Source: Aliidongia sp. (GTDB taxonomy: Bacteria > Pseudomonadota > Alphaproteobacteria > ATCC43930 > CGMCC-115725). From it: 24,000 nucleotides of DNA. A program made the position numbers and the translations under genes. The stretch covers positions 24,314 through 48,313 of the forward strand of contig JBBCHB010000041.1 of NCBI GenBank assembly GCA_037200015.1, written 5' to 3'. Under the pieces are notes generated by a model, which saw nothing but the letters and a program-made list of their open reading frames with translations, did not search any database and was not told where the DNA came from. Positions 455 through 23,945 of this stretch are shown in pieces (the stretch's first letter is position 1; every line of letters begins with the position of its first letter).

Positions 455-1819
455 TTTTTGACTTGAAGTGGGCGCTCTGAGCGGCCGCTTGGTGGGCGCG
501 CCGCCAGAGCGACCAGGCGATGATGTGGGCCGGTTTGATCCGCCGCTGAGCAAGCCTGACGGCGATGCGGCGGACCTCCTGGACCGACCAGCGGATCAGG
601 GGCGGCGCGGCGGTTTCGCGGCTGATGGTTTCGTTTTTGGGGGCGGTGTGGCATTGGCGCGCTGGCGGATGGCAGCCATCATGGCGAAGGCGAGCATGAC
701 GAGCGAGACGTGGCGATGCCAGCCATGCCAGGAGCGGCTCTCGTTGTGATCGAGACCAAGCTCGTTCTTGGCGGTCTCGAAGCTGTCCTCGATGGCCCAG
801 CGATGGCCTTCGACCGACACCAGCGTCTCGATCGGCGTACCGGCCGGACACCAAGTGGTGAAGAAGGCGAGATCGCCATTTGCGATGTGGCGGCGGATCA
901 GCAGGCCGCGGTCCACACGCCCGGATTTTCGGCATCGAATTCCTCGGCCTCTAGGTCGGCGAGCTCAAGATAGGCCCAGTCATGAAGCCGCGGCCCTTTG
1001 GTTCCTGCTCCTGCCGAGAGGCGCTGCCAATCGGATGGTTTGCAGCGCCTCGGCGATCGCCAAGGCTGATCCTGCGACCGGTTGCGGCTTGTCCCAGGAA
1101 TGGAAGAGATGGTCGCCGGTGACGCCGAGCACATAACCCTTGCCGGCCCGGCGCAGGACGCGTTCGACCTCGCTGACACCATAGACGGTATCGGCGGCGA
1201 CCCAGGCGAACGGCACATGAGCCGCGAGCGCGCGCCCGATCATCCGGGCCGCCAGCTTGGGCTTGGTGGCGAAGCCAACATCGTCCGACACATGGGCGGC
1301 CTTCAGGCGCGCCGGATCGTCGGTCCAGATCTTCGGCAGATAGAGCGCGCGGTCGATAAAGGCGTGGCCGTGGCAGGAGACATAAGCGGCGAACACGCCC
1401 ACTTGGCAGTTCGTGATCTTGCCGGCCGAGCCCGTGTACTGACGGGACACGCCACACGATGCCTTGCCCTGCTTCAGGAATCCGGTCTCGTCGAGCACCA
1501 GCACCGCATGTTCGTCCGCCAGATGCTCGACCACATAGTCGCGCACGATGTCGCGCAGCGCATCGGCATCCCAGCGACCGCGGCCGAGAATGGCCTGCTG
1601 GCGCCACGGCCCCGGATCACCGGCCGCTTCCGCCCGCATCCATCCGGTCTTGCGACGCTCGTCGCCAACCAGCCCATCCAGGAACAGGCCAGCGCTCGCC
1701 GCGACGCGGTCCTGCGTGAAAAGCGGTCGTATCCGACCCTTCACATCGCGCAGCGACGAGGCCCACAACGCCAGCGTCGCTTCAATCGAGGCACCAGACA
1801 TCCATGATCTCCGAATCAT
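444..1819 (-). pseudogene. IS701-family DDE transposase, three frame breaks as assembled
   Basis: Family-typical segments lie in different frames. They are SRQYTGSAGKITNCQVGVFAAY (ORF 980-1819), DWQRLSAGAGTKGPRLHDWAYLELADL (898-1218), HRWAIEDSFETAKNELGLDHNESRSWHGWHRHVSL (596-916) and LIRWSVQEVRRIAVRL...HFKSKTQL* (444-935). Breaks are near 1042, about 905-925, and the T5G5 run at 634-643. Confidence 0.85.
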
Positions 1820-4911: not shown

Positions 4912-6342
4912 TCAGTTCCAGATCGGCGGGCGGAGATCCTTCCACGGGCATTCCGTCTCCAGCTGCGCGGCGAGCCGGAACAAAGTCGCCTCGTCGGCAT
5001 AGCCGGCACTGAACATCATGCCGACCGGCAGGCCGGTGCTCGACCGGCAGAGCGGCAGCGAGATCGAAGGCTGGCCGGTGAAGTTGAACGGTGCGGCGAA
5101 GGGAAACAGCTCGGCGTTGCGCCGCCGGATCTCCAGCGGTTCGACCGTGACCGGGTTGATATAGCCGAGCGGCGGCGGCACCGTGCCCATGACCGGCGTC
5201 AGATAGACGTCGAACTCCTCGAACAGGGCAAGCACGCCACGCCCGAGCATCCGGCGTTCCTGCATACTGTAGAGCGCCTCGGCCCCGGTGACGCGGCGAC
5301 CGCCCTTCAGCGCGGCCCAGGTCAGCGGCTCCAGCTCATGCGGTTCGGGCTCGCGGCCGATCAGCTCGATCAGGCGCTGCATGCCCGCGGCGTAATTGGC
5401 GCCGGCCAGCGCGTTCTGCGCGGCGTAGAGCGCGCGGAGATCGACACCCAGGCCCCGCGGCACGACCTCATGGCCGAGCTTTTCAAGCAGCGCGGCGACG
5501 CCTTCCAGCAGAGATTGGATCTCCGGGTGGATCGGCTGGCCATTCGCGGTCTCCGACGACCAGGCGATGCGCAGCCGGCCGGGGGCGCGGTCGAGTTCGG
5601 CCAGATAAGACCCGGCCTTGGCCGGCGGCGCATAGGGCGAGGCCGGTTCCGGCACGCCGGTGACGTCGAGCATGGCGGCGCTGTCGCGCACGGTACGGGT
5701 CAGCACATGCTCGACGACATTGCCTTGCGCAAAGTCATAGCCGTCCGGCAGGTGCGGGTTGCGGTCGCGCGTGACCTTGAGCCCGACCAGCCCACAGCAA
5801 GATGCGGGAATCCGGATCGAACCCAGCCCGTCGCCGCCATGGGCCATCGGCACGATGCCGGCCGCGACCGCCGCCGCCGAGCCGCCCGATGAACCGCCGC
5901 TGCTGCGCTCGAGATCCCAGGGGTTATGGCAGGCGCCGAGATGGGCCGATTCAGTCGTGCCGGTGATGCCGAACTCGGGCGTGTTGGTCTTGCCCAGCGG
6001 CACCACGCCGCTCGAGCGGTAGCGGCGCATCAGTCCGGTATCCGCCGCATCGACGACGCCGGCCGCGAATCGGCTGCCCGAGGTGCGCGGCCAGCCGGCG
6101 ACGCCGATCAGCAGATCCTTGACCATGAACGGCACACCGCGGAACGGCCCGTCCGGGAGATTGCCCTTGGCGGCGGCGCGCGCCTCGTCATAGGCCTTGT
6201 AGACGACTGCGTTCAGCACGCCGTTATGACGCTCGATGCGGTCGATGGCAGCCTCGACCAGCTCGGCCGGCGTGATATCGCCCGTCCGGACCAGTTCGGC
6301 CAGACCCAGCCCGTCATACTCGGAATATTCGGCAAAGCTCAC
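4912..6342 (-). CDS. amidase (amidase-signature family)
   Basis: 476 aa with the Gly/Ser-rich AS signature GGSSGGSAAAVAAG and the catalytic-type context KDLL...GTTES. GTG start at 6342 follows GGGGGGA. Confidence 0.9.
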   Translation of the reverse strand: MSFAEYSEYDGLGLAELVRTGDITPAELVEAAIDRIERHNGVLNAVVYKAYDEARAAAKGNLPDGPFRGVPFMVKDLLIGVAGWPRTSGSRFAAGVVDAADTGLMRRYRSSGVVPLGKTNTPEFGITGTTESAHLGACHNPWDLERSSGGSSGGSAAAVAAGIVPMAHGGDGLGSIRIPASCCGLVGLKVTRDRNPHLPDGYDFAQGNVVEHVLTRTVRDSAAMLDVTGVPEPASPYAPPAKAGSYLAELDRAPGRLRIAWSSETANGQPIHPEIQSLLEGVAALLEKLGHEVVPRGLGVDLRALYAAQNALAGANYAAGMQRLIELIGREPEPHELEPLTWAALKGGRRVTGAEALYSMQERRMLGRGVLALFEEFDVYLTPVMGTVPPPLGYINPVTVEPLEIRRRNAELFPFAAPFNFTGQPSISLPLCRSSTGLPVGMMFSAGYADEATLFRLAAQLETECPWKDLRPPIWN

Positions 6343-6552
6343 AACATCCCCCCGTTTTGTTTGTTTCGGCTCAGCCGACCGCAGTGTCCGGCCGCGACGA
6401 CTATACCAGCCTTCGTCAACGGGTCATCGTCGCACGCGCCCATCCAGCCCGTTGACCCAGACGAGTTTTCCCTTCACGTTTAACGCGTGTCGCGATATTT
6501 TTCGCTACTCTGCGGACCAGCTGAGCGCAACCCTCCCGACAAGGATCGAACA

Positions 6553-6807
6553 ATGCCGAGTGACAGTCAAACGAGCGGACCGGTCGACGCCCGTGTGCTG
6601 GCGACGGCACCGGCCGTCGCGCTGCAGACGCTCTACCAGGGCATCTCGAAAGCGATGGTCATCGCCGTGCAGAACGCCGTCGCGGCGCAGCAGCAAGCCA
6701 ATATCACCGCGCAAGCCGTCGTAACCATGGGCGTCTCAACCCTGTACGCAATCGACACGGCAACCCTGGGCCAGGCGGCAGCCAAGGAAATCGGCAAGCC
6801 GCAATGA
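6553..6807 (+). CDS. rebB: RebB-like R-body (killing-trait family) subunit, 84 aa
   Basis: Core APAVALQTLYQGISKAMVIAVQNAVAAQQQANITAQAVVTMGVSTLYAIDTA matches the RebB signature as I remember it (xPAxAxxxLYQ ... NAxxxQQQxNxxAQAxxTxGVxxLYxIDTA). AAGGA lies 7 nt before ATG 6553. The stop overlaps the next ATG (ATGA at 6804-6807). Confidence 0.8.
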   Translation: MPSDSQTSGPVDARVLATAPAVALQTLYQGISKAMVIAVQNAVAAQQQANITAQAVVTMGVSTLYAIDTATLGQAAAKEIGKPQ

Positions 6808-6866
6808 GCATCGCCGCCCGTACCGGCCATGGCGCATCGCTGTTTCACGAAAGGAATGACGAGCCG

Positions 6867-7569
6867 ATGAGCGATTCCAAAACCGCTGATACCGGCCAGG
6901 ACTTCGATACGGCCACTGGCGTCGATACGCTGGCGGTCGCCGGATCCCCGGCGCAATCCTTTGCCATGCTCGACGCCGTGCTGATGCATGCGCTCGGCAT
7001 GGGGATGCTGAACGCCGTCACCAGCCAGCAGAATGCCGCGACGATCCGCTCCGGCACCGTCGCAATGACCTGCTCGATCCTGCTGTCGCTGCCGGTTTCC
7101 GCCACCGCGAACCAGCCGAAACCGACGCCTCAGATCGCCGCCGTGCTCGCGGCTGCAGCGAAGGCGGCACAGGCAGCACCGGCCGACGAGATCGGTCCCA
7201 GGACAGCCGCCGGAAGCGACGACCCCGCAGCGACCGTCGATCCCCAAATCCTCGACGCGATCAATCAGGAGCAACTGGCGACGATGTCGCCGCAGGTCGT
7301 GCTGACGAGCGGCGCTGGCAAAGCCTACCAAATGGTCGCCCCAATCCGCGGCGATTGCCATCCAAGACGCGACCGAAGCCCTGCGCAGCATTTCGACGAT
7401 TGCCGCCGCCGCATCCGGCGTTGCGATGGCCTGTTTCCTCGCGACAGGCGAGGAGAAGTATCTCGCGGGCCTCACGGCCGCGCAGGACATGGTGAAATCC
7501 GCCACCGAAGATTTCACGCGGATCGGCACGGCCGCCGCTACCCTCCTGAAGGAATTTCCGTCCGGATAA
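6867..7569 (+). pseudogene. tandem double RebB-like-domain protein (about 233 aa), one frame break as assembled
   Basis: Frame A 6867-7340 encodes domain 2 (SPAQSFAMLDAVLMHALGMGMLNAVTSQQNAATIRSGTVAMTCSILLSL), an Ala/Pro linker, and the start of domain 3 (GAGKAYQMVA). Frame B 7342-7569 continues QSAAIAIQDATEALRSISTIAAAASGVAMACFLATG...LLKEFPSG*. The break is at the CCCC run 7339-7342. The alternative start is the ATGA-coupled ATG at 6804. Frame A beyond 7343 is Arg-rich read-through antisense to the GNAT gene. Confidence 0.65.
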
Positions 7570-7587
7570 CGACGGCGGGACTGTGTT

Positions 7588-8160
7588 CTATCCGGCGGCG
7601 TGCAGCTCCGCCGCCGGCTTATCGAGCAAGGCTTTCTCCAGCACGACGAAAGCCAGGTCCGGCCGCATCGGCGTGCCGAAGCGATCGTCGTCATAGGGGA
7701 AGGCTTCGGTTTCGCCGGTGCGCCGATAGCCGCGCCGCTCGTACCAGGCGATCAGGCTGTCGCGCACCGACACCACCGTCATACGCGCGGTGCCAGCGCC
7801 CCAGCCGAGCGCTTCGGCCTCGGCCCGCTCCAGCATCATCCGCCCCAAGCCGCGATCCTGCAGGCCGGGACGGACTGCCAGCATGCCGATCAGGCAGGCC
7901 GGCTTGCCCTGTGCGTCGGCCGTTTTCTCCAGCCGGATGCAGGCAAGCAGCGCGCCCGTTTCGCGCAGGCCCAGAATGGTGACGTCGCGGCTGCTGTCGA
8001 ATTCAGCGGCGAGGGTCGCGGCCGTCGTGCGCGGACCGGCCACCATGTCGATTTCGCTGGTCCATCCGGCCTGGCCATCGAGCCCGCGATAGGCGGCATT
8101 CACCAGCTCGGCAAGCGCCTCCAAATCGGCGGCTTTACAGACCGATATCGTCGTCGTCAC
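7588..8160 (-). CDS. GNAT-family N-acetyltransferase (190 aa)
   Basis: Acetyl-CoA motif A context LAVRPGLQDRGLGRMMLERAEAEA, then WYERRGYRRTGE. Confidence 0.85.
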   Translation of the reverse strand: MTTTISVCKAADLEALAELVNAAYRGLDGQAGWTSEIDMVAGPRTTAATLAAEFDSSRDVTILGLRETGALLACIRLEKTADAQGKPACLIGMLAVRPGLQDRGLGRMMLERAEAEALGWGAGTARMTVVSVRDSLIAWYERRGYRRTGETEAFPYDDDRFGTPMRPDLAFVVLEKALLDKPAAELHAAG

Positions 8161-9509: not shown

Positions 9510-10354
9510 ATGAGGCCGATCATCGCCGTCGTCGCCCCGGGCAGCATGGGCGCCGCCATCGGACGCCGTCTGGTCGAGCGCGGCGCCGAAGTGCGCACCG
9601 CGCTGGCCGGCCGCAGTGCCGCGACCAGGGCACGGGCCGCGGCCGCCGGCATGGTCGCAGCCGAGCCGAGCGGCTTGGCCGAAGCCGGGTTCATCCTGTC
9701 GATCGTGCCGCCGGGCGAAGCGCTTGCCCTCGCCGAAAGCCTTGTGCCGGTCCTGACCCAGGCCACGCACAAGCCGCTCTATGTCGATTGCAATGCGGTC
9801 AGCCCGGACACGGTCGCACGCATTGCCACGGTCATCGCACCAACCGGCTGCCGCTTCGTCGATGCCGGCATCATCGGCGGCCCGCCGCAGCCGGACGCGG
9901 CCGGCCCGGTGTTCTACGCCTCCGGGCCGGATGCTGGATGCCTAGCGGCGCTCGCCGAATACGGGCTCGAAATCAGCCTGCTCGACGGGCCGATCGGCGC
10001 CGCCTCCGCCCTCAAGATGTCCTATGCCGGCATCACCAAGGGCTGAGCGCACTCGCCACCGCCATGATCCTGGCCGCGACCCGCGCCGGCGCGGCCGAGG
10101 CGCTGGGCGCGGAACTGGCGGCGAGCCAGCCGGCGCTGCTGAAGATGTTCACGCGCGGCGTGCCCGGCATGTTCCCCAAGGCCTATCGCTGGATCGCCGA
10201 GATGGAGGAGATCGCCGCCTTCTCGGACGATCCGGCCACGACGGCGATCTATCGCGGCATCGCCGATCTCTACCGCCGGATCGCGGCCGATGTCGCCGGG
10301 CCGAACCAGGACACGGCGACCCTGCGCGGGTTCTTCACACAGGCGGCGGAATAG
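9510..10354 (+). pseudogene. NAD(P)-binding oxidoreductase with DUF1932-type C-terminal domain, one frame break
   Basis: N-terminal Rossmann IAVVAPGSMGAAIGRRL after GAAGGAG. The frame ends ...SYAGITKG* at 10046, and the protein continues in the next frame as LSALATAMILAATRAGAAEAL...FFTQAAE*. This fits a missing base at about 10043. Confidence 0.75.
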
Positions 10355-11965: not shown

Positions 11966-12793
11966 CTACGCGAAATCCGTCCCGAGACTGACCGTCTGCC
12001 AGCGTTCGAGATCGGCGGCGAAGCTCTTCTGCTTCTCCTGCACGCGGCGGAAGGCGTCGGAGCCGAGCACCAGATGCAGCGGCGGTTCGGCTGCTGCAAC
12101 CGCCTCGATGATGGCGGCAGCGGCGCGGACCGGGTCGCCGATCTGCTGGCCGGCCATGGCATCGAGCCGAGCCACGGCCGCACCGGCAGTCGCAGCGTAG
12201 TCGTCGCTCCCGGCTTCGGTCTTGCGCAGCGAATGTTCCGACAGGAAATCCGTGCGGAAGGCGCCGGGCTCGACCAAGGTCACCTTGATGCCGAGCGGGG
12301 CGACTTCATAGGCGAGCGCCTGCGACAGGCCTTCGACCGCAAATTTGGAGGCGGCATAGAAGCCCGAGCCGGCCATTGGCGCCAAGCCGGCAATCGAGGT
12401 GATGTGACGATATGGCCGGACCGTTGCCGGCGCAGCTGCGGCAGCACGGCCTGAATGACGCGCCGGGTGCCGTGGAAATTCACGTCGAACAGATGCGCGA
12501 CCTGTTCCTCGGTCGCCGCCTCGATCGCGCCGAGCAGGCCGTAGCCGCCATTGTTGACGACGACGTCGATCCGCCCGCGGATGCCGATCGCCTGGCCGAG
12601 CACATCCCTTGATCGCCGCCGGATCGGTCACGTCGAGCGCCAGGACGTGGAGACGGCCCGTCTTATCCGCGAAGGGCGGCTTGCCGTCGCGCGTCGTGCC
12701 GATGACGGTCTCGCCCTTGGCCAGCAGCGCCTCGCTCAGCACCATGCCGAAGCCGCGGGAAATGCCGGTGATGAACCAGATCTTGGTTGCCAT
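11966..12793 (-). pseudogene. short-chain dehydrogenase/reductase (SDR), two compensating frame breaks
   Basis: MATKIWFITGISRGFG (TGxxxGxG), then VVNNGGYG in a second frame, then SIAGL...YAASKFAVEGL (YxxxK) back in the first frame. Breaks are at the CCC run 12606-12608 and about 12405. Total length is a multiple of 3. Confidence 0.8.
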
Positions 12794-13823: not shown

Positions 13824-16019
13824 TTATGCCGTCCCGAACAGCGGCTTGACCCGGGCCGGCGTGAACGGCACCGAGCGCAGGCGTACGCCGGGTCGCGTCG
13901 AACACGGCGTTGCCGATCGCGGCCGGAACGATCGCGGCCGAGGGTTCGCCGCCGCCCCAGGGCACTTCGGTCGGGCGGTCGATCAGATCGATCGCGACCT
14001 CCGGCACCTCCGGAAGGTCAGGATCGGGTAGCTCGCCCAATCGAGGCTGGTCACCTTGGAGCGGTCGAAAGTCAGCTCCTCCTTCAAGGTCCGGCTGACC
14101 GTCTGGATGACATTGCCGTCGATCTGGTTGCGCAGCCCGTCGGGGTTGATGATCTGGCCGCAATCATGCGCGACATAGAACTTCTTCACCGCAATCTCGC
14201 CGGTCTTGCGGTTGACCTCGACCTCGGCCACGGCGCCGACATAAGTGCGCAGCAGCTCGTATTTGACATAGGCCATGCCGCGGCCCGTGGCGATCTCGGC
14301 CGAGCGGTCGACTTTCGGCCGGTCGCGCCATTTGCTGAGCGTGGCCAACCGTTCGAGCAACTCCTTGCCGCGCGTATCGGCCAGATGGTCGAGCCGGAGC
14401 TGGAGCGGATCGGCGCCGAGCTCGGCGGCGATCTCGTCCAGGAACTCTCATTGGCGAAGGTGTTCTGCAGCCGCCCGGGCGAGCGGATCCAGGACGGCCG
14501 GAACGGCGTCGTCTCCAGCCGATGCGCCACCGTCTTGATGTTCGGGAAACCATAGGGGATGGCCTGGTCGTTCAGCACGCCGCCCGGGCTGAGCGTGCCC
14601 AAACTGTCGAGCCCGGCGTGATCGGCCGCGACCAGCGCCACCATGCCGGCGCCGCCATTCGGGATGAACAGCTCGGATTCCCAGGCGACCACCTTGCCGT
14701 CCGCATCGATGCCGGCGCGCATGTCGAGCAGGGTCGGCGGGCCTTTGGGATCCCAGCCATGCTCGTCGGCGCGCATCCATTGCACGCGCACCGGCTGGCC
14801 GGTTTCGCGCGCCAGCAGCACGGCATCGGCCGCGGCATCCTCATGGCCGTTGCGGCCGTAGCAGCCGGCGCCGTCGAGATAGATGCAGCGCACCTTGGCC
14901 GGATCCGCGCCGAGCATCGCTGCCAGCTGCTTGCGCAGATTATGGGTCGCCTGCGAAGCGGTCCAGACCGTGACGCTGTCCTGGTCGAAGCTGGCGACCG
15001 CGCAGGACGGGCCGATCGAGCCATGGGTGTGGATGGCGAAATCATAGCTCGCCGAAAGCTTGCGCGGCGCCGCGGCGAGCGCGGTCGCCGAATCGCCGAT
15101 ATTGCTGGTCGAGTCGTCCTTGGCGATTTTGGTCGTGCGGACATGCTGCCAGAGCTGCTTCTCGTCCGGCAGGCCCTCCCAGGGCGACCAAGTGATGGCG
15201 AGCTGCTGCGCCGCCTTGATCGCGCCCCATTCGCTCTTGGCGACGACGCCGAGGAAATTGCCGACCCGCACGACCTTGACGACGCCCGGAATGTCCTTGA
15301 TCGAGGCCTCGTCATAGGACACGAGGGTCGAGGGGGCCCATGCCGGCCGGCCGGATGACGCGGCCGTGCAGCATGTTCGGCAGCTTGAAATTCTGCATAT
15401 AGGTGAAGCGCGCCATCACCTTGTCCGGGATGTCGAGCCGGCGCACCGGCTTGCCGACCAGCGTGTAATCGGCCGGCGCCTTCTGCGGTGCCGCCTTGTC
15501 GAGCTTCAGCTCCAGCGTCTTGCCGCCGATCAGCTTGCCGATCGCCACGGATTTGCCGCCCGGCGCCGTGACCACGCCGTCCTTGAGCTTCAGCCCGGCG
15601 GCATCGGCCTTGAGCCGGGTCGCCGCCTCGGCGAGCAACGCGCGGCGCGCCGTCGCCGCCGCCTGGCGCAACTGCATGCCGCCATTCTGGATCGACAGGC
15701 TGCCGAAGCTCGGCCCCTGGTCGGGGGTCAGCGCCGTATCGCCCTGGATCACCGTGACATGGTCGAGCGGCACGTCGAGCTCGTCGGCGACGATCTGGGT
15801 CAGCGCCGTGCGCACGCCCGTGCCGAGATCGACCTTGCCGGAATAGACCGTGACCTTGCCGTCGGCGGCGATCGCCAGGTAGCCGTCGACCGCATCGGGC
15901 GCCACGGTCTTGGCGACCGGCGCAGGCCCGGCCAAGCCGAGGCTGGGCGCCAGCGCGAAGGTGACGACCAGGGAGCCGGACGCCTGCAGCAGGGTGCGGC
16001 GATTCATCATGATGGTCAT
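13824..16019 (-). pseudogene. xanthine-dehydrogenase-family molybdopterin-binding subunit (IorB / aldehyde oxidoreductase large-subunit-like), four frame breaks
   Basis: Tat-type signal MTIMMNRRTLLQASG. Homologous segments run through ORFs 15312-16037, 14186-15322, 13983-14360 and 13777-14163, then a final frame ending ...DATGVRLRSVPFTPARVKPLFGTA*. Breaks are at the G5 run 15332-15336, AA 14443-14444, GG 14012-14013 and GGG 13890-13892. Net length is a multiple of 3. Confidence 0.8.
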
Positions 16020-16635: not shown

Positions 16636-17129
16636 TCAGTGGGGCGGGCGTCTCGCCCGCCACGCCGCGGAGCGGCGTTCATGTGCGTTCCATCCCAGTT
16701 GCCCAGCACCACGATATGTCTCCAGCCCGGGCCAGCGCCGGAAGGGATTGCCCAAGACGTAGTCGCGTTTCTGTTGGTATTCGACGTCATTGCGAACCAC
16801 GCGATCAAAGTACTCGTCTTGCCAGATAGTACCGATGTGCTGGCGATACCCTCCAATGCGCTTGGCGGAGAACGACTTCCAAGAATGCAGGATTGCTTCC
16901 AAAGGGAAAACGGGATGCGGCTCGACAAGGACATGCACATGGTCATTCATTACGACATAGGCATGGAGCGCATATCGCTGGTCGTCAAAATGGCGAAGGC
17001 TGGAAACGATGAGGTCGCGCTCCCCTCTGAAAGATCGGTCAGCCCCTCCCTGAGGCGCCACGTTACAAAGTAAAGTGCTCCGTGAACCCGAGCGTGGGGA
17101 AGCCTGTGTCGATAGAAATCGAAAGTCAC
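16636..17129 (-). pseudogene. REP-associated tyrosine transposase (RAYT, IS200/IS605-like Y1 HUH), one frame break
   Basis: GTG 17129 opens (M)TFDFYRHRLPHARVHGALYFVTWRL. After a break at the CCCC run 17022-17025 the protein continues ERDLIVSSLRHFDDQRYALHAYVVMNDHVHVLV (HUH) ...WQDEYFDRVVRNDVEYQQKRDYVLGNP (catalytic Tyr region). The 3' end runs into the left REP. Confidence 0.8.
16638..16683. repeat. REP element, left flank of RAYT
   Basis: agtggggcgggcgtctcgcccgccacgccgcggagcggcgttcatg, with internal hairpin ggcgggcg-tct-cgcccgcc. It is an inverted copy of 17222-17267 with 1 mismatch in 46 bp. Confidence 0.85.
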
Positions 17130-19606: not shown

Positions 19607-20485
19607 CTATGGCTTTGCGCCGCGCCTCGCCTTCCATTTGGGCGATGTATATTGCGGCCAATTCGGGATCGGCCGTTCATTGCGGATCGCGAGTTCGTTT
19701 TGAACGGAAACCGGCGGCGAAAGAGAGGGGTCCAGATCGCCGAAATACATCCGGGCATAATTGGGCCTGACGCCACGGTCGCGGATGAAGGCGGATCCGA
19801 CCTCCTCGGCCGAATCCTTCAACAACCGCTTGTCGTGCCGGCCGCTGGCCAGCTCCGCGCGCAGCTCGGCCAGCAGATCCTCGATATCGTCCGGCATGAG
19901 CCGCATGTCGAAGGGCAGCGCCTCCGCAGCGTAACGCTCTGCCGCCTCGCGACGTTCGGCCAGCTCCTTGGCCGGATCGGGCTTGCACCACCGGCTGCGC
20001 GGGCGCTCGGGCGCGGGCGGCGGGGTGTCGGAACCGGATGGGTCGGGCTGCGTCTCGGACGGCGGCGCCGCCAGATCCTCAAGCAGCTTCAGCTCCAGCG
20101 CGATATCGTAGCGCGCGAGCCGGCTCAGGCGGAACAGCGCCAGCGACATCTCGCCGGGCGGAGTCGCCCGCGGCGGCGCTTCGCTCGACACTTCGGCCGC
20201 TGGAGCCTCGGCCGCCGGCATCTCCGCCGCCGGGATCTCGATCAAGGCGTCCTTCGCCGCCTCCGCCCGCGCCTCGGCGCCAAGCGCACGCCGCTCCTCG
20301 GCCGCATCCCGCCGGTTCATCCGTTCCGCCGCTTCGAGCGCCAGTTCGGTAAACCGCCGCAGCGTCCGGACATGCAGCTCGGTCCGCGCCGCCACCGTCT
20401 CGCCGGCAAGGCAAGACGCGCCATCCGGCAGCGGATCGCTGGGCGGCGCCTCAGGCGCGGGTTGGAACGAGGGCAAATCTTCCAT
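19607..20485 (-). CDS. hypothetical Ala/Glu/Pro-rich protein (about 292 aa), family not recognised
   Basis: Long uninterrupted ORF with normal acidic/helical composition. Its antisense ORF is Arg-rich junk. Possible starts are at 20485, 20497 and 20512, and an AT-rich stretch lies just upstream. Confidence 0.5.
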   Translation of the reverse strand: MEDLPSFQPAPEAPPSDPLPDGASCLAGETVAARTELHVRTLRRFTELALEAAERMNRRDAAEERRALGAEARAEAAKDALIEIPAAEMPAAEAPAAEVSSEAPPRATPPGEMSLALFRLSRLARYDIALELKLLEDLAAPPSETQPDPSGSDTPPPAPERPRSRWCKPDPAKELAERREAAERYAAEALPFDMRLMPDDIEDLLAELRAELASGRHDKRLLKDSAEEVGSAFIRDRGVRPNYARMYFGDLDPSLSPPVSVQNELAIRNERPIPNWPQYTSPKWKARRGAKP

Positions 20486-20628
20486 AGAACAAATCATATA
20501 CAATCTGTCCATTCGCGAGGCAAGCCGTTTTTATCGAGGCCGGCTCCAAGGCGAGAGGCGTCCGGTAAGCCCATTCGGTCTGCTTCGGTGATGAGTACGT
20601 GATCGGCGGGATGTGGCCCCCTTTTTGT

Positions 20629-21849: not shown

Positions 21850-22992
21850 ATGGCCGAGCGCGGCAAGCCGCTCGACGGGATTCTGGTGGTGGCGCTGGAG
21901 CAGGCGGGTCGCGGCGCCCTATTGCAGCGTGCGGCTGGCCGATGCCGGGGCGCGGGTCATCAAGATCGAGCGGCCCGAGGGTGATTTCGCGCGCGGCTAT
22001 GACGCCTCGGTCAAGGGGCTGTCGAGCTATTTCGTCTGGCTCAACCGCGGCAAGGAGAGCCTGGTCGCCGATATCAAGGACCCGGCGGATGCGGCGCTGC
22101 TGCACCGGATCCTGGCGCGGGCCGATGTCTTCATCCAGAACCTGGCGCCGGGGGCCGCGGCGCGGGCCGGCTTCGGCTCGGATGAGCTGCACCGGCGCTA
22201 TCCGCGGCTGATCACGCTCGACGTCTCGGGCTATGGCGCCGGCAACAGCTACACCGAGATGAAGGCCTATGATCTGCTGGTCCAGGCCGAAAGCGGCCTC
22301 GCCTCGATCACCGGGCATCCGGCCGGGCCGGGCCGGGTCGGCGTCTCGGTCTGCGACATTGCTTGCGGCATGGCCTCGCATTCGGCCGTGCTCGAAGCCT
22401 TGATCCAGCGCGGCCGGACCGGCGAAGGCAGCCGGCTCGAAGTCAGCCTGTTCGACGGCATGGCCGATTGGATGAATGTGCCGCTGCTCTATTTCGAAGG
22501 CACCGGCAAACCGGTCGAGCGGGTCGGGCTGGCGCATCCCTCGATCTGTCCTTATGGCGCCTTCGAGACTTCGGACGGCAAGCTCGTGCTGATCTCGATC
22601 CAGAACGAGCGCGAATGGGCAGTTTCTGCGCCCATGTGCTGGACGAGCCGGGCCTGCCGGCGCAGCCGGGCTATGAAAGCAACACCGCGCGGGTCGCCAA
22701 CCGGCCCGAAGTCGATGCCCGCGTTGCCCGCGCGTTCCAGGCGCTGAGCCGCGACGAGGCCGCCGCCCGGCTCGGCACGGCGCGCACGGCCTATGGCTTC
22801 GTCAACGGCCTGCCGGAGCTGGCCGCCCATCCGGCGCTGCGCCGGGCCGCGGTCGAGACGCAGAACGGCCTCGCCTCGATCATCGCGCCGCCGGCGCTGC
22901 GCGACGGCGAAGCGCCCCGGCTCGGCGCGGTGCCGGCGATCGGCGAGCATAGTGCCGGGATCCGCCGGGATTTCGCAGGAGAGGCCGCATGA
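21850..22992 (+). pseudogene. family III CoA-transferase (CaiB/BaiF-like), two compensating frame breaks
   Basis: GGAGGG-led ATG 21850 gives MAERGKPLDGILVVALEQA. It continues VAAPYCSVRLADAGARVIKIERPEGD...ISIQNEREW in ORF 21617-22747, then FCAHVLDEPGL...GEHSAGIRRDFAGEAA* in ORF 22363-22992. Breaks are at GGG 21906-21908 and TTT 22623-22625. Confidence 0.8.
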
Positions 22993-23334: not shown

Positions 23335-23945
23335 GAAAACGGCGTCGGCGTCGAGCGCCGAGGTGTCGATCAGCACGGCATCCTCGGCCGGCTTGAGCGG
23401 CGCCGTCGCGCGCGCACTGTCGCGGGCGTCGCGTGCCTGCAGATCGGCCAGCACGGCGGCGGCGTCGCCCGGCTCGCCGCGTGCCGCCAATTCCTTGAAG
23501 CGCCGCTCGGCCCGAGCGCCGATATCCGCCGTGACGAACAGCTTGAGCGGCGCGTCCGGGCAGACCACCGTGCCGATATCGCGCCCATCGAGCACGGCAC
23601 CGCGTTTGCCGGCGGGTGGCTCGGATGCGAAGCGGCGTTGGAAGTCGAGCAGCAGCGCCAGCGCACGCCCGGATGGGCCGCCACGACCGAGGAGGCACGG
23701 GCGACATCCTCGTCGCGCAGCCGCGGATCGCTGAGACTCGTCGGATCGAGACGGTGAGCGCAAGCCTCTGCCACCGCGGCATCGGCCGGCGCGTGTCCGG
23801 CCGCCAGCACATCGCGGGCGACGGCCCGGTAGATCGCCCCGGTGTCGAGATAAGCGAGATCGAAACGGTCGGCCAGACGCCGCGCCAGCGTGCCCTTGCC
23901 GGAGGCCGCCGGCCCGTCGATCGCGATGGTGAGGGTCCGGCTCAC
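23215..23945 (-). pseudogene. cmk: cytidylate kinase, one frame break as assembled; 3' end uncertain
   Basis: GTG 23945 gives [25 protein letters not shown] (P-loop) ...AAHPGVR. After a break near 23660 it continues [11 protein letters not shown]...[23 protein letters not shown]...[19 protein letters not shown]. The tail beyond about 23320 is read from antisense fumarate-hydratase sequence. Confidence 0.8.

What the first reader, a model, noticed from the sequence alone, without database searches (positions are those of the whole stretch)
6343..7587. Minimal R-body (reb) locus: a canonical RebB-like subunit followed by a fused double-RebB-domain gene
ORF 6553-6807 carries APAVALQTLYQGISKAMVIAVQNAVAAQQQANITAQAVVTMGVSTLYAIDTA. 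I recognise this as the RebB / killing-trait signature of refractile-body (R-body) polymer subunits, first described in Caedibacter taeniospiralis, with homologues known in Azorhizobium caulinodans and Pseudomonas aeruginosa. The next gene holds two more, increasingly divergent copies of the pattern in one reading unit, joined by an Ala/Pro-rich linker (aa 80-125). D2 is SPAQSFAMLDAVLMHALGMGMLNAVTSQQNAATIRSGTVAMTCSILLSL. D3 is GAGKAYQMVA|QSAAIAIQDATEALRSISTIAAAASGVAMACFLATG and lacks the NAxxxQQ core. Described reb loci encode separate small paralogues (RebA/B/D) plus RebC. Three things here depart from that: a covalently tandem subunit, no RebC-like gene or dedicated regulator nearby, and a two-gene locus wedged between an amidase and a GNAT. 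If functional, it would encode a pH-actuated protein-ribbon machine with an undescribed subunit architecture.
Basis: partly seen in the sequence, partly recalled or inferred. Interest (0 to 1): 0.8.

Follow-up and report, generated by a model that had tools for sequence, protein, structure and literature searches.

The report
Reduced R-body locus with fused accessory gene
This is a stripped-down, two-gene version of a known bacterial R-body (coiled protein ribbon) gene cluster in which two accessory genes that are normally separate are joined into one; the apparent break in that gene is most likely a sequencing error.

Summary
ORF 6553-6807 is a RebB-family protein (Pfam PF11747, 66 bits against a cut-off of 24). 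The next gene (6867-7569) starts with a second RebB domain (53-54 bits), continues through an Ala/Pro-rich linker, and ends in a highly conserved third domain. One extra C at 7339-7342 breaks the frame.

The second gene is not a tandem RebB duplication. It is a fusion of two adjacent accessory genes of published "Group 1" reb clusters: HP1.3/S2 (Reb-like with a Pro-rich tail) and HP1.2/S3. These are separate genes in about 70 species, including Stenotrophomonas, Xanthomonas, Azospirillum and Bradyrhizobium.

The fused form, with a single upstream RebB and a conserved TTGAC-N17-CACGAT promoter-like motif, recurs in six species-representative MAG loci and a metagenome contig pair. Intact fused proteins fall into about 20 clusters at 50% identity. 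These loci lack HP1.1, HP1.4/S1, extra RebB copies and the sigma-54-type regulator.

D3 is only remotely RebB-like (hhalign P=6e-5).

The window carries at least 7 more frame breaks at short homopolymers, one of them in cmk. The break is therefore probably an assembly indel.

Whether the pair builds an R-body is untested. Verdict: new variant of a known kind, moderate interest.

The parts
6452..6480 (+). Conserved sigma-70-like promoter motif: -35 TTGACC (6452-6457), 17-nt spacer, -10 CACGTT (6475-6480), about 70 nt upstream of the rebB start
   Evidence: Alignment of the regions upstream of the primary rebB gene in all 7 fused-type loci (alignment A3). TTGAC is invariant, and C, A, G and T of CAnGnT are invariant at the same spacing. 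The generic consensus scan did not call it.
6553..6807 (+). rebB: primary-type Reb subunit, 84 aa. It has the NAVAAQQQ core and the LYQ motif but lacks the N-terminal QITD segment.
   Evidence: Pfam RebB 66 bits against a cut-off of 24. It scores 64 bits against an HMM of 135 primary RebBs and aligns only from model position 26. It is the only primary RebB in the 24-kb window.
6867..7569 (+). Fused accessory gene (S2::S3, i.e. HP1.3::HP1.2). It encodes 233 aa once one C of 7339-7342 is removed; stop codon TAA at 7567-7569.
   Evidence: Translations. There are 23 intact full-length homologues at 43-57% identity and 92-100% query coverage. D2 and D3 lie in one stop-to-stop ORF only in the fused-type loci.
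6906..7097 (+). D2: RebB domain of the S2/HP1.3 type (residues 14-77), with the NAVTSQQN core
   Evidence: Pfam RebB 53-54 bits. hhalign against primary RebB gives P=2.5e-7, probability 93%.
7098..7235 (+). Ala/Pro-rich linker (residues 78-123). It corresponds to the Pro-rich C-terminal tail of stand-alone S2/HP1.3 proteins.
   Evidence: Length and sequence vary between homologues. AF2 pLDDT is 31-35 with mostly no regular structure. dN/dS is 0.39-0.71, against about 0.2 in the domains. The S. maltophilia 194-aa protein has the same domain plus a Pro-rich tail.
7236..7566 (+). D3: S3/HP1.2-type domain (residues 124-233). It has the VDPQILDAINQ motif, the invariant TSGAGKAYQ motif, and an extra C-terminal helix ending in FPSG.
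   Evidence: It is the most conserved part of the family, with 18 invariant columns. Stand-alone 115-139-aa versions sit inside large reb clusters. There is no Pfam family for it. hhalign against primary RebB gives P=5.8e-5. AF2 pLDDT is 72-85, all helical.
7339..7342 (+). CCCC run carrying one extra C, which is the frame break
   Evidence: Codon-level comparison with 12 homologous loci. Downstream of the break, the second frame still scores 118 bits against the D3 HMM. dN/dS after the break is 0.24-0.29 against L009 and L010.

Best explanation
**What it is.** The locus is a reduced derivative of the 'Group 1' type of reb (R-body) gene cluster. It has its own conserved sigma-70-like promoter motif, one primary Reb subunit gene (6553-6807), and one gene (6867-7569) that fuses the two 'secondary Reb' accessory genes. 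In full clusters those two genes lie side by side. They are S2/HP1.3 (a RebB-like domain with a Pro-rich tail) and S3/HP1.2 (a conserved helical domain only remotely related to RebB).

**Shown here:**
- the family memberships of ORF1 and D2;
- the fusion event;
- recurrence of the module under purifying selection in other uncultured bacteria;
- loss of HP1.1, S1, the extra RebB copies and the sigma-54/AraC-type regulator.

**The frame break.** The single extra C is most likely an assembly or sequencing indel, so the real gene is probably intact.

**How it most likely works (inferred).** The two genes are transcribed together. The primary Reb polymerises into the ribbon. The fusion protein supplies the S2 and S3 functions in a fixed 1:1 ratio, tethered by a flexible linker. 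By analogy with RebC/RebD of the type 51 R-body and RapA of P. aeruginosa, these may be minor structural or assembly-guiding components. Fusion of adjacent genes argues that S2 and S3 act together physically. Whether three Reb-type domains in two polypeptides are enough to build an extendable R-body is not known.
For: - **Family membership.** Pfam RebB hits for ORF1 and D2 are well above threshold.
- **Split state in full clusters.** In S. maltophilia R-24 the order is 4 RebB, then 78-aa, 194-aa (D2 plus Pro-rich tail), 115-aa (D3) and about 360-aa genes, then a sigma-54/AraC regulator. Metagenome loci L003 and L004 show the same order.
- **Match to published descriptions.** This fits HP1.4/HP1.3/HP1.2/HP1.1 of Raymann 2013. 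It also fits S1/S2/S3 of Dorr 2026, whose seeds htRebE/F/G are 65, 184 and 113 aa and come from the R-body producer H. taeniospiralis.
- **HMM survey of 87 loci.** D2 and D3 share one ORF only in L001/2, L006/7, L008-L011, L058 and the window. About 70 species have them split.
- **What fused loci contain.** They have one primary RebB (L006/7 has none), no HP1.1 and no regulator. Their flanking genes differ. They share an upstream TTGAC-N17-CAnGnT motif.
- **Selection.** dN/dS is 0.20-0.27 for both domains.
- **Spread of the fusion.** About 20 clusters of fused proteins exist among 1.84 billion representatives.
- **Break as artefact.** At least 7 further frame breaks at 2-5-nt homopolymers occur in five neighbouring genes: NAD_binding_2|DUF1932, an SDR (2 breaks), an IorB-like gene (2 breaks), CoA_transf_3 and cmk. 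In each case both halves still match Pfam. The D3 reading after the break is fully conserved.
Against: - No experiment links S2/S3 proteins, or any two-gene reb locus, to R-body formation.
- Studied systems need two to three Reb paralogues plus helpers (PMC5527310; bioRxiv 10.64898/2026.05.21.725848).
- The primary RebB here lacks the QITD N-terminal signature.
- I could not find the source contig or a second assembly of the same strain. The break therefore cannot be proven to be an error.
- A second family member (P0028) is broken at the same codon.
- AF2 confidence for D2 is low, so the model gives no support for a D2-D3 contact.
- The equation of D2 and D3 with the S2 and S3 groups rests on gene order, lengths and described features, not on direct alignment with the published seed sequences.
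Confidence: 0.7

Rival explanations
1. The frame break is real and the locus is a decaying remnant. The fused gene is a recent pseudogene that yields a D2-linker fragment with a nonsense tail, and no polymer is made.
For: The extra C is in the sequence as given. Reduced loci could be a stage in cluster loss: HP1.1, S1 and the regulator are absent. P0028 is also broken, at the same codon.
Against: The window has at least 7 other homopolymer frame breaks, including one in the housekeeping gene cmk. This points to sequence quality rather than selective decay of this gene. There is no degeneration after the break: 118 bits to the D3 HMM and dN/dS of 0.24. The same reduced module is intact, under purifying selection, and keeps a conserved promoter motif in six other species-level loci.
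Confidence: 0.13
2. The pair is intact but does not build an R-body by itself. It either serves a larger reb cluster elsewhere in the genome, or forms a different, non-extending Reb-type assembly with another role.
For: Characterised systems need several Reb paralogues and helper proteins (PMC5527310; bioRxiv 2026.05.21.725848). There is only one primary RebB here, and it lacks the QITD segment. One fused family member (P0029, L006/L007) has no RebB gene next to it at all.
Against: Within 16-24 kb around all fused-type loci there are no other reb genes. In the one 335-kb contig examined, only 16.7 kb was read, so a distant cluster is not excluded. Three Reb-type domains are present, which matches the number of paralogues that known systems require.
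Confidence: 0.25
3. The break is a programmed or phase-variable frameshift site that regulates production of the full-length fusion.
For: Two family members from different lineages are shifted into the same frame at the same codon: the window by +1 in CCC, and P0028 by what looks like -2 in GCGC.
Against: The site is not conserved at the DNA level. Most homologues read GCG CAA, with no C run. A 4-nt run is too short for slippage-based phase variation. GCC-CCA-A offers no good +1 re-pairing for tRNA-Ala or tRNA-Pro (inference from codon-anticodon rules). At least 28 of the relatives are in frame. The window is full of similar breaks elsewhere.
Confidence: 0.02

Closest known systems
'Group 1 synteny' reb clusters (Raymann et al. 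2013, G3, PMC3583457; group 1 + S1/S2/S3 of Dorr et al. 2026, BMC Genomics, PMC13430693). Examples: Hydrogenophaga taeniospiralis htRebA-G, Stenotrophomonas maltophilia, Xanthomonas, Azospirillum, Bradyrhizobium.
   Same: The same protein families occur in the same order: primary RebB, then an S2/HP1.3-type Reb-like domain with a Pro/Ala-rich tail, then the S3/HP1.2-type domain. D3 is 57-72% identical to the stand-alone proteins over the best-matching segment.
   Different: S2 and S3 are one polypeptide here. There is one primary RebB instead of 4-5, and it lacks the QITD N-terminus. There is no S1/HP1.4, no HP1.1 (about 360 aa) and no sigma-54/AraC-type activator. A sigma-70-like promoter motif is present instead.
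Type 51 R-body operon rebA-rebD of Caedibacter taeniospiralis (pKAP298)
   Same: Small, helical RebB-family (PF11747) subunits. Several paralogous Reb domains are encoded together. Accessory components are thought to guide assembly (bioRxiv 10.64898/2026.05.21.725848).
   Different: There is no RebC, which has no homologues outside Caedibacter anyway. The subunits there are separate 81-114-aa proteins. No S2/S3-type proteins are present. Function there is demonstrated; here it is only inferred.
Pseudomonas aeruginosa PA14 reb cluster (rebP1, rebP2, rebD, rapA, rcgA, fecI2; PMC8322103) and the Azorhizobium caulinodans reb operon (PMC5527310): 'Group 2' type
   Same: RebB-family structural genes sit next to a longer, Pro-rich, weakly Reb-like accessory protein. 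RapA (group S4) co-purifies and co-localises with the R-body. This offers a precedent for what S2/S3 might do.
   Different: The accessory families differ (S4, HP2.x). Dedicated regulators are present there (ECF sigma, Crp/Fnr-type RebR, PraR). No fusion of accessory domains is reported.

Membership tests
RebB / 'Killing trait' protein family (Pfam PF11747) | Match to the family HMM above the gathering score: ORF1 (6553-6807) | tested here: met
   66 bits against a cut-off of 24, E=3e-18, model positions 9-67 of 68.
RebB / 'Killing trait' protein family (Pfam PF11747) | Match to the family HMM above the gathering score: D2 (gene 2, residues 14-77) | tested here: met
   53-54 bits against a cut-off of 24, model positions 3-66 of 68. 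hhalign against 135 primary RebBs gives P=2.5e-7.
RebB / 'Killing trait' protein family (Pfam PF11747) | Match to the family HMM above the gathering score: D3 (gene 2, residues 124-233) | tested here: not met
   D3 alone gives no RebB hit, even at E<=10 (protein 4). Stand-alone D3 proteins carry no Pfam domain. Remote profile-profile similarity only: P=5.8e-5, probability 66%, colinear over 71 columns, with a reversed control at P=0.28.
RebB / 'Killing trait' protein family (Pfam PF11747) | Signature motifs of primary Reb proteins (Dorr 2026): (D)QITD near the N-terminus, a conserved Tyr (LYQ), and NAV...QQQ | tested here: inconclusive
   Read directly from the sequence. ORF1 has LYQ and NAVAAQQQ but no QITD. 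D2 has NAVTSQQN and a degenerate QDFD, with no YQ. D3 has PQILD and KAYQ but no NAV/QQ core. No single domain carries the full set.
'Group 1 synteny' reb cluster (Raymann 2013) | HP1.3/S2 and HP1.2/S3 homologues next to reb genes | tested here: met
   Both are present, as the two halves of one gene. The equation with the published groups rests on gene order, lengths and described features, not on alignment with the seed accessions.
'Group 1 synteny' reb cluster (Raymann 2013) | HP1.1 (about 360 aa) and HP1.4/S1 (60-80 aa) present; several primary reb genes | tested here: not met
   An HP1.1 HMM built from 76 sequences finds nothing in the window or in any fused-type locus. Only one primary RebB is present and there is no S1-like hit.
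'Group 1 synteny' reb cluster (as seen in the loci fetched here) | Adjacent sigma-54-activator/AraC-HTH regulator | tested here: not met
   The regulator HMM hits 66 split-type loci at E<1e-20. It hits none in the window or the fused-type loci.
R-body (the structure itself) | Insoluble coiled ribbon that extends on a trigger such as low pH | not testable with these tools
   This needs expression, electron microscopy and pH-shift assays. There is no solved structure to compare with: no PDB relative by sequence or by fold.

The most novel reading that the evidence does not exclude
The RebB + S2::S3 pair is a self-sufficient, naturally minimised R-body (or R-body-like) machine. Three Reb-type domains on two polypeptides, driven by a simple constitutive-type promoter, would be enough to build the polymer. 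The fusion would also reveal that S2 and S3, whose role is unknown in every reb cluster, form an obligate 1:1 unit, for example a nucleator or cap built around the invariant TSGAGKAYQ motif.
Probability: 0.25. Interest if true: 0.6.

Novelty: new variant of a known kind. Interest (0 to 1): 0.4.

Why it matters
R-bodies are being developed as pH-driven protein actuators and have been implicated in virulence. The roles of the accessory 'secondary Reb' proteins (S1-S3, or HP1.1-1.4) are unknown, and no structure exists.

A natural fusion of S2 with S3 is Rosetta-stone evidence that these two proteins work together. It recurs in about 20 sequence clusters. It always appears in loci that have shed the other accessory genes, the regulator and the extra RebB copies. 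It also defines the smallest natural Reb gene set seen so far, which is an obvious construct to test for minimal R-body assembly.

The two published surveys I read do not mention fusions. One of them excluded loci with fewer than three reb genes (PMC13430693, Methods), so this class would have been filtered out.

The result is incremental rather than surprising. All the parts belong to known families and nothing about function is shown.

Tried and rejected
- **Genome scans.** Scanning genome contigs with the single repaired protein found nothing. The alignment-based scan was needed.
- **Source contig or sister assembly.** Exact-protein look-ups of ORF1 (both possible starts) and of the amidase found nothing. 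An exact DNA pattern spanning the break, allowing CCC or CCCC, found nothing in metagenome contigs.
- **DNA of the other broken homologue, P0028.** The sample file was too large. The only 100%-identical contig ends before the break.
- **Sigma-54 promoter.** Searched upstream of rebB because full clusters carry a sigma-54 activator. No convincing TGGCAC-N5-TTGC was found in the window or its relatives. A sigma-70-like motif is conserved instead.
- **Generic scans.** The promoter/terminator scan found no + strand promoter and no terminator.
- **NCBIfam.** No model matches either protein.
- **Structures.** PDB sequence searches and Foldseek with the AF2 model (best E=0.58) gave nothing. The model is low-confidence except for D3.
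- **Direct D3 vs D2 comparison.** Not significant.
- **Programmed frameshifting or phase variation.** Considered and rejected (see rival explanations).
- **Horizontal-transfer signature.** The GC content of the reb genes (65%) is close to the window mean (66%), so there is no clear signal.
- **Long antisense and overlapping ORFs (6633-7694 minus strand, 6236-6724 plus strand, and the 6804-7982 read-through).** These are high-GC artefacts; each overlaps the reb genes or the GNAT gene, which have family matches, though I did not search these ORFs themselves.
Full report
**1. The observation.**
The region reads as the first-stage reader described.

- ORF1 (6553-6807, 84 aa) matches Pfam RebB/'Killing trait' PF11747 at 66 bits. 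The gathering cut-off is 24 and E=3e-18.
- A second gene follows after a 59-nt gap. Its conserved start is ATG 6867, preceded by AAGGAA. An upstream ATG at 6804 overlaps the ORF1 stop.
- Residues 14-77 of gene 2 (D2) match RebB at 53-54 bits.
- Residues 78-123 are Ala/Pro-rich.
- The frame then breaks. The window reads GTC GCC CCA ATC CGC, where every homologue reads GTC GCS CAA TCG GCS. There is one extra C in the run 7339-7342.
- Removing that C gives a 233-aa protein ending at TAA 7567-7569.

**2. The fused gene is a real, conserved architecture.**
A search of 5.8 billion proteins with the repaired product returned 23 intact proteins of 232-291 aa. They cover 92-100% of the query at 43-57% identity, and all come from metagenomes.

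- The alignment shows a moderately conserved D2, a variable linker, and a very conserved C-terminal domain D3.
- D3 has 18 invariant columns, including TSGAGKAYQ, D167 and a C-terminal F-P.
- A profile search of 1.84 billion cluster representatives found 665 relatives.
- About ten of these are full-length fused representatives. About nine more are divergent two-domain proteins of 188-331 aa. One is a triple fusion that adds a primary RebB domain.

**3. What the two halves are.**
The stand-alone relatives of D3 (P0024, P0027; 129-137 aa, no Pfam domain) lie inside large reb clusters. Those clusters hold four RebB genes, a small protein in L003 (72 aa), a 158-210-aa protein, the D3 protein, several unknown proteins, and a sigma-54-activator/AraC regulator.

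An alignment-based scan of one genome per species found 114 loci, of which 80 were kept. In S. maltophilia R-24 the order is:

- four RebB genes;
- a 78-aa weakly Reb-like protein;
- a 194-aa protein made of a D2-like RebB domain and a Pro-rich tail;
- a 115-aa D3 protein;
- a gene of about 360 aa;
- the regulator, on the opposite strand.

This is the 'Group 1 synteny pattern' of Raymann et al. 2013:

- HP1.4, 60-80 aa, a distant Reb homologue;
- HP1.3, about 170 aa, a distant Reb homologue twice the usual length;
- HP1.2, 110-120 aa, no conserved domain;
- HP1.1, about 360 aa (PMC3583457).

It also matches the 'secondary' groups of Dorr et al. 2026. Their S2 has an extended proline-rich C-terminus, and their S3 lacks the proline and the motifs of domains 2 and 3. 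Their seeds htRebE/F/G are 65, 184 and 113 aa and come from the R-body producer Hydrogenophaga taeniospiralis (PMC13430693).

Gene 2 of the window is therefore a fusion of HP1.3/S2 with HP1.2/S3. The 'linker' is the S2 tail. I infer this mapping from order, lengths and described features. I could not align the published seed accessions.

**4. Is D3 a RebB domain?**
Pfam does not detect it.

- A profile of 74 D3 sequences against a profile of 135 primary RebBs gives hhalign P=5.8e-5 and probability 66%.
- The match runs over 71 colinear columns. It pairs VDxQIxDAINQ with VNDQITDSVTQ, and KAYQxVAQS with NLYQATAQA.
- The reversed-template control gives P=0.28.
- D3 against D2 directly is not significant.
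- AF2 predicts D3 as a short helix, a long helix and an extra C-terminal helix at pLDDT 72-85. D2 and the linker are low-confidence.
- Nothing in the PDB resembles it by sequence or fold.

D3 is best described as a distant, elaborated relative of the Reb fold. It is not a third RebB copy in the Pfam sense.

**5. The two-gene module.**
HMMs for D2 and D3 run over all 87 fetched loci place both domains in one stop-to-stop ORF in only a few places:

- L001/L002 (metagenome contigs);
- L006/L007;
- L008-L011 (one Pseudomonadota MAG and three uncultured Alphaproteobacteria MAGs);
- L058 (a Lysobacterales MAG);
- the window.

About 70 species have the split arrangement. Except for L006/L007, every fused locus has exactly one primary RebB immediately upstream. 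That RebB aligns to the primary-RebB model only from position 24-33 onward, so it lacks the QITD segment.

- An HP1.1 HMM built from 76 sequences finds no hit in any fused locus or in the window.
- A regulator HMM that matches 66 split loci also finds no hit there.
- Flanking genes differ between loci: abhydrolase and gltB, a GGDEF protein and an epoxide hydrolase, a Na+/H+ antiporter, and here an amidase and a GNAT.
- All seven loci share an upstream TTGAC-N17-CAnGnT motif. In the window this is TTGACC at 6452-6457 and CACGTT at 6475-6480.
- dN/dS among fused relatives is 0.20-0.27 for D2 and D3, and 0.39-0.71 for the linker.

The pair is therefore a conserved, selected and independently promoted unit. 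It is not a random fragment.

**6. The frame break.**
The window contains at least seven more frame breaks in five neighbouring genes. Each sits at a 2-5-nt homopolymer, and both halves still match the same Pfam architecture:

- NAD_binding_2 | DUF1932, near 10043 (CC to C);
- an SDR that goes out of frame near 12606 and comes back near 12405 (AA to A);
- an IorB-like molybdopterin subunit, near 15334 (C4 to C5) and near 14443 (TTT to TT);
- a family III CoA-transferase (profile 10-252 | 250-365);
- cytidylate kinase cmk (profile 1-102 | 112-205).

Eight indels of both signs in 24 kb, one of them in a housekeeping gene, with no downstream decay, is the signature of an error-prone assembly. The closest relatives of the module come from metagenome-assembled genomes. 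The reading after the break is fully conserved: 118 bits to the D3 HMM and dN/dS of 0.24.

I could not find the source contig or a sister assembly to prove this.

One oddity remains. P0028, a homologue of a different lineage, is shifted into the same frame at the same codon. From its protein sequence this looks like GCGC to GC, but its DNA past the break could not be retrieved. The site is not conserved at the DNA level and offers no plausible slippery sequence. I therefore treat this as coincidence.

**7. How it most likely works.**
Shown: the gene content, the fusion, its recurrence, the selection on it and the promoter motif.

Inferred:

- the two genes are co-transcribed, given the 59-nt gap and no predicted terminator;
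- the primary Reb polymerises;
- the fusion delivers the S2 and S3 functions at a fixed 1:1 ratio through a flexible tether.

Precedents for accessory roles:

- RebD is a minor component of the type 51 R-body, and RebC is a helper that is not incorporated. Without them, assembly goes off-pathway (bioRxiv 10.64898/2026.05.21.725848).
- RapA (group S4) co-purifies and co-localises with P. aeruginosa R-bodies (PMC8322103).
- AZC_3784 is essential in A. caulinodans (PMC5527310).

No experiment addresses S2 or S3. Known systems need two to three Reb paralogues, and this locus encodes three Reb-type domains. Whether it makes an extendable ribbon is open.

**8. Comparison and novelty.**
- All parts belong to known families.
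- The absence of RebC is normal, because RebC has no homologues outside Caedibacter (PMC13430693).
- What I did not find described is the S2::S3 fusion and the reduced two-gene locus class. A full-text search for 'fusion' and 'fused' gave no hits in either survey.
- Dorr et al. also filtered out clusters with fewer than three reb genes.

This is a new variant of a known kind. It is useful as Rosetta-stone evidence for an S2-S3 partnership and as a candidate minimal construct. It is not a categorically new system, and its function is unproven.

Noticed in passing
window ~10043; ~12405 and ~12606; ~14443 and ~15334; within 22363-22747 (exact site not determined); within 23370-23700 (exact site not determined): At least seven further frame breaks at short homopolymers in five genes: NAD_binding_2/DUF1932 dehydrogenase, an SDR (out and back), an IorB-like molybdopterin subunit (two breaks), a family III CoA-transferase, and cytidylate kinase cmk. 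Both halves of each gene still match Pfam. This suggests the window comes from an indel-prone assembly.
   Followed up: yes
P0028 (JGI sample 3300067032, 1855-bp contig; no DNA available): A second fused-family member from another lineage is frameshifted at exactly the same codon as the window (...AYQLVA|IGRHRS). From its protein sequence this is consistent with loss of GC from GCGC. Both shifts lead to the same frame. The cause is unknown and I treated it as coincidence.
   Followed up: partly
P0108 (258 aa, from the representative search): A triple fusion: an S2-like domain, a Pro-rich linker, an S3-like domain, then a C-terminal primary-type RebB domain (AHNAVTSQQQTNVTMQAATTMGTATMFSVDTAA). 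This suggests a whole Reb set can be carried on one polypeptide.
   Followed up: no
L006 8001-8816 / L007 (P0029, 271 aa; seen on 20 contigs of up to 664 kb): A divergent fused S2::S3 gene stands alone with no RebB-family gene within +/-8 kb. Its neighbours are a methyltransferase, a NIPSNAP protein, a large BTAD/AAA regulator and chemotaxis-like genes.
   Followed up: partly
window 6452-6480 and the equivalent positions in L001, L008-L011, L058: A conserved TTGAC-N17-CAnGnT motif lies upstream of the single rebB gene in all fused-type loci, although protein identity is only about 45-57% and the flanking genes differ. The window has about 25 extra nt in the leader.
   Followed up: yes
L047 10583-12232 (-), L003 12953-14602 (-), L004 13837-15573 (-), and 63 other loci: Split-type Group 1 reb clusters nearly always carry a regulator of 549-578 aa in the three loci examined, combining a sigma-54-interaction AAA+ domain with an AraC-type HTH. 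This implies sigma-54-dependent control of those clusters. It is absent from all fused-type loci.
   Followed up: partly
window 980-1819 (-) and 16636-17061 (-): Mobile-element genes: a DDE_5 (IS-type) transposase and an IS200-like Y1 transposase. I did not examine whether they relate to the placement of the reb pair.
   Followed up: no
window 19607-20512 (-): A 301-aa Ala/Glu/Pro-rich ORF with no Pfam match. It may or may not be a real gene.
   Followed up: no
L010 6834-7601 and L011 6871-7632: In two fused-type loci the gene immediately upstream of rebB encodes a GGDEF-type diguanylate cyclase. The TTGAC motif lies just after its stop codon. A possible regulatory link was not explored.
   Followed up: no
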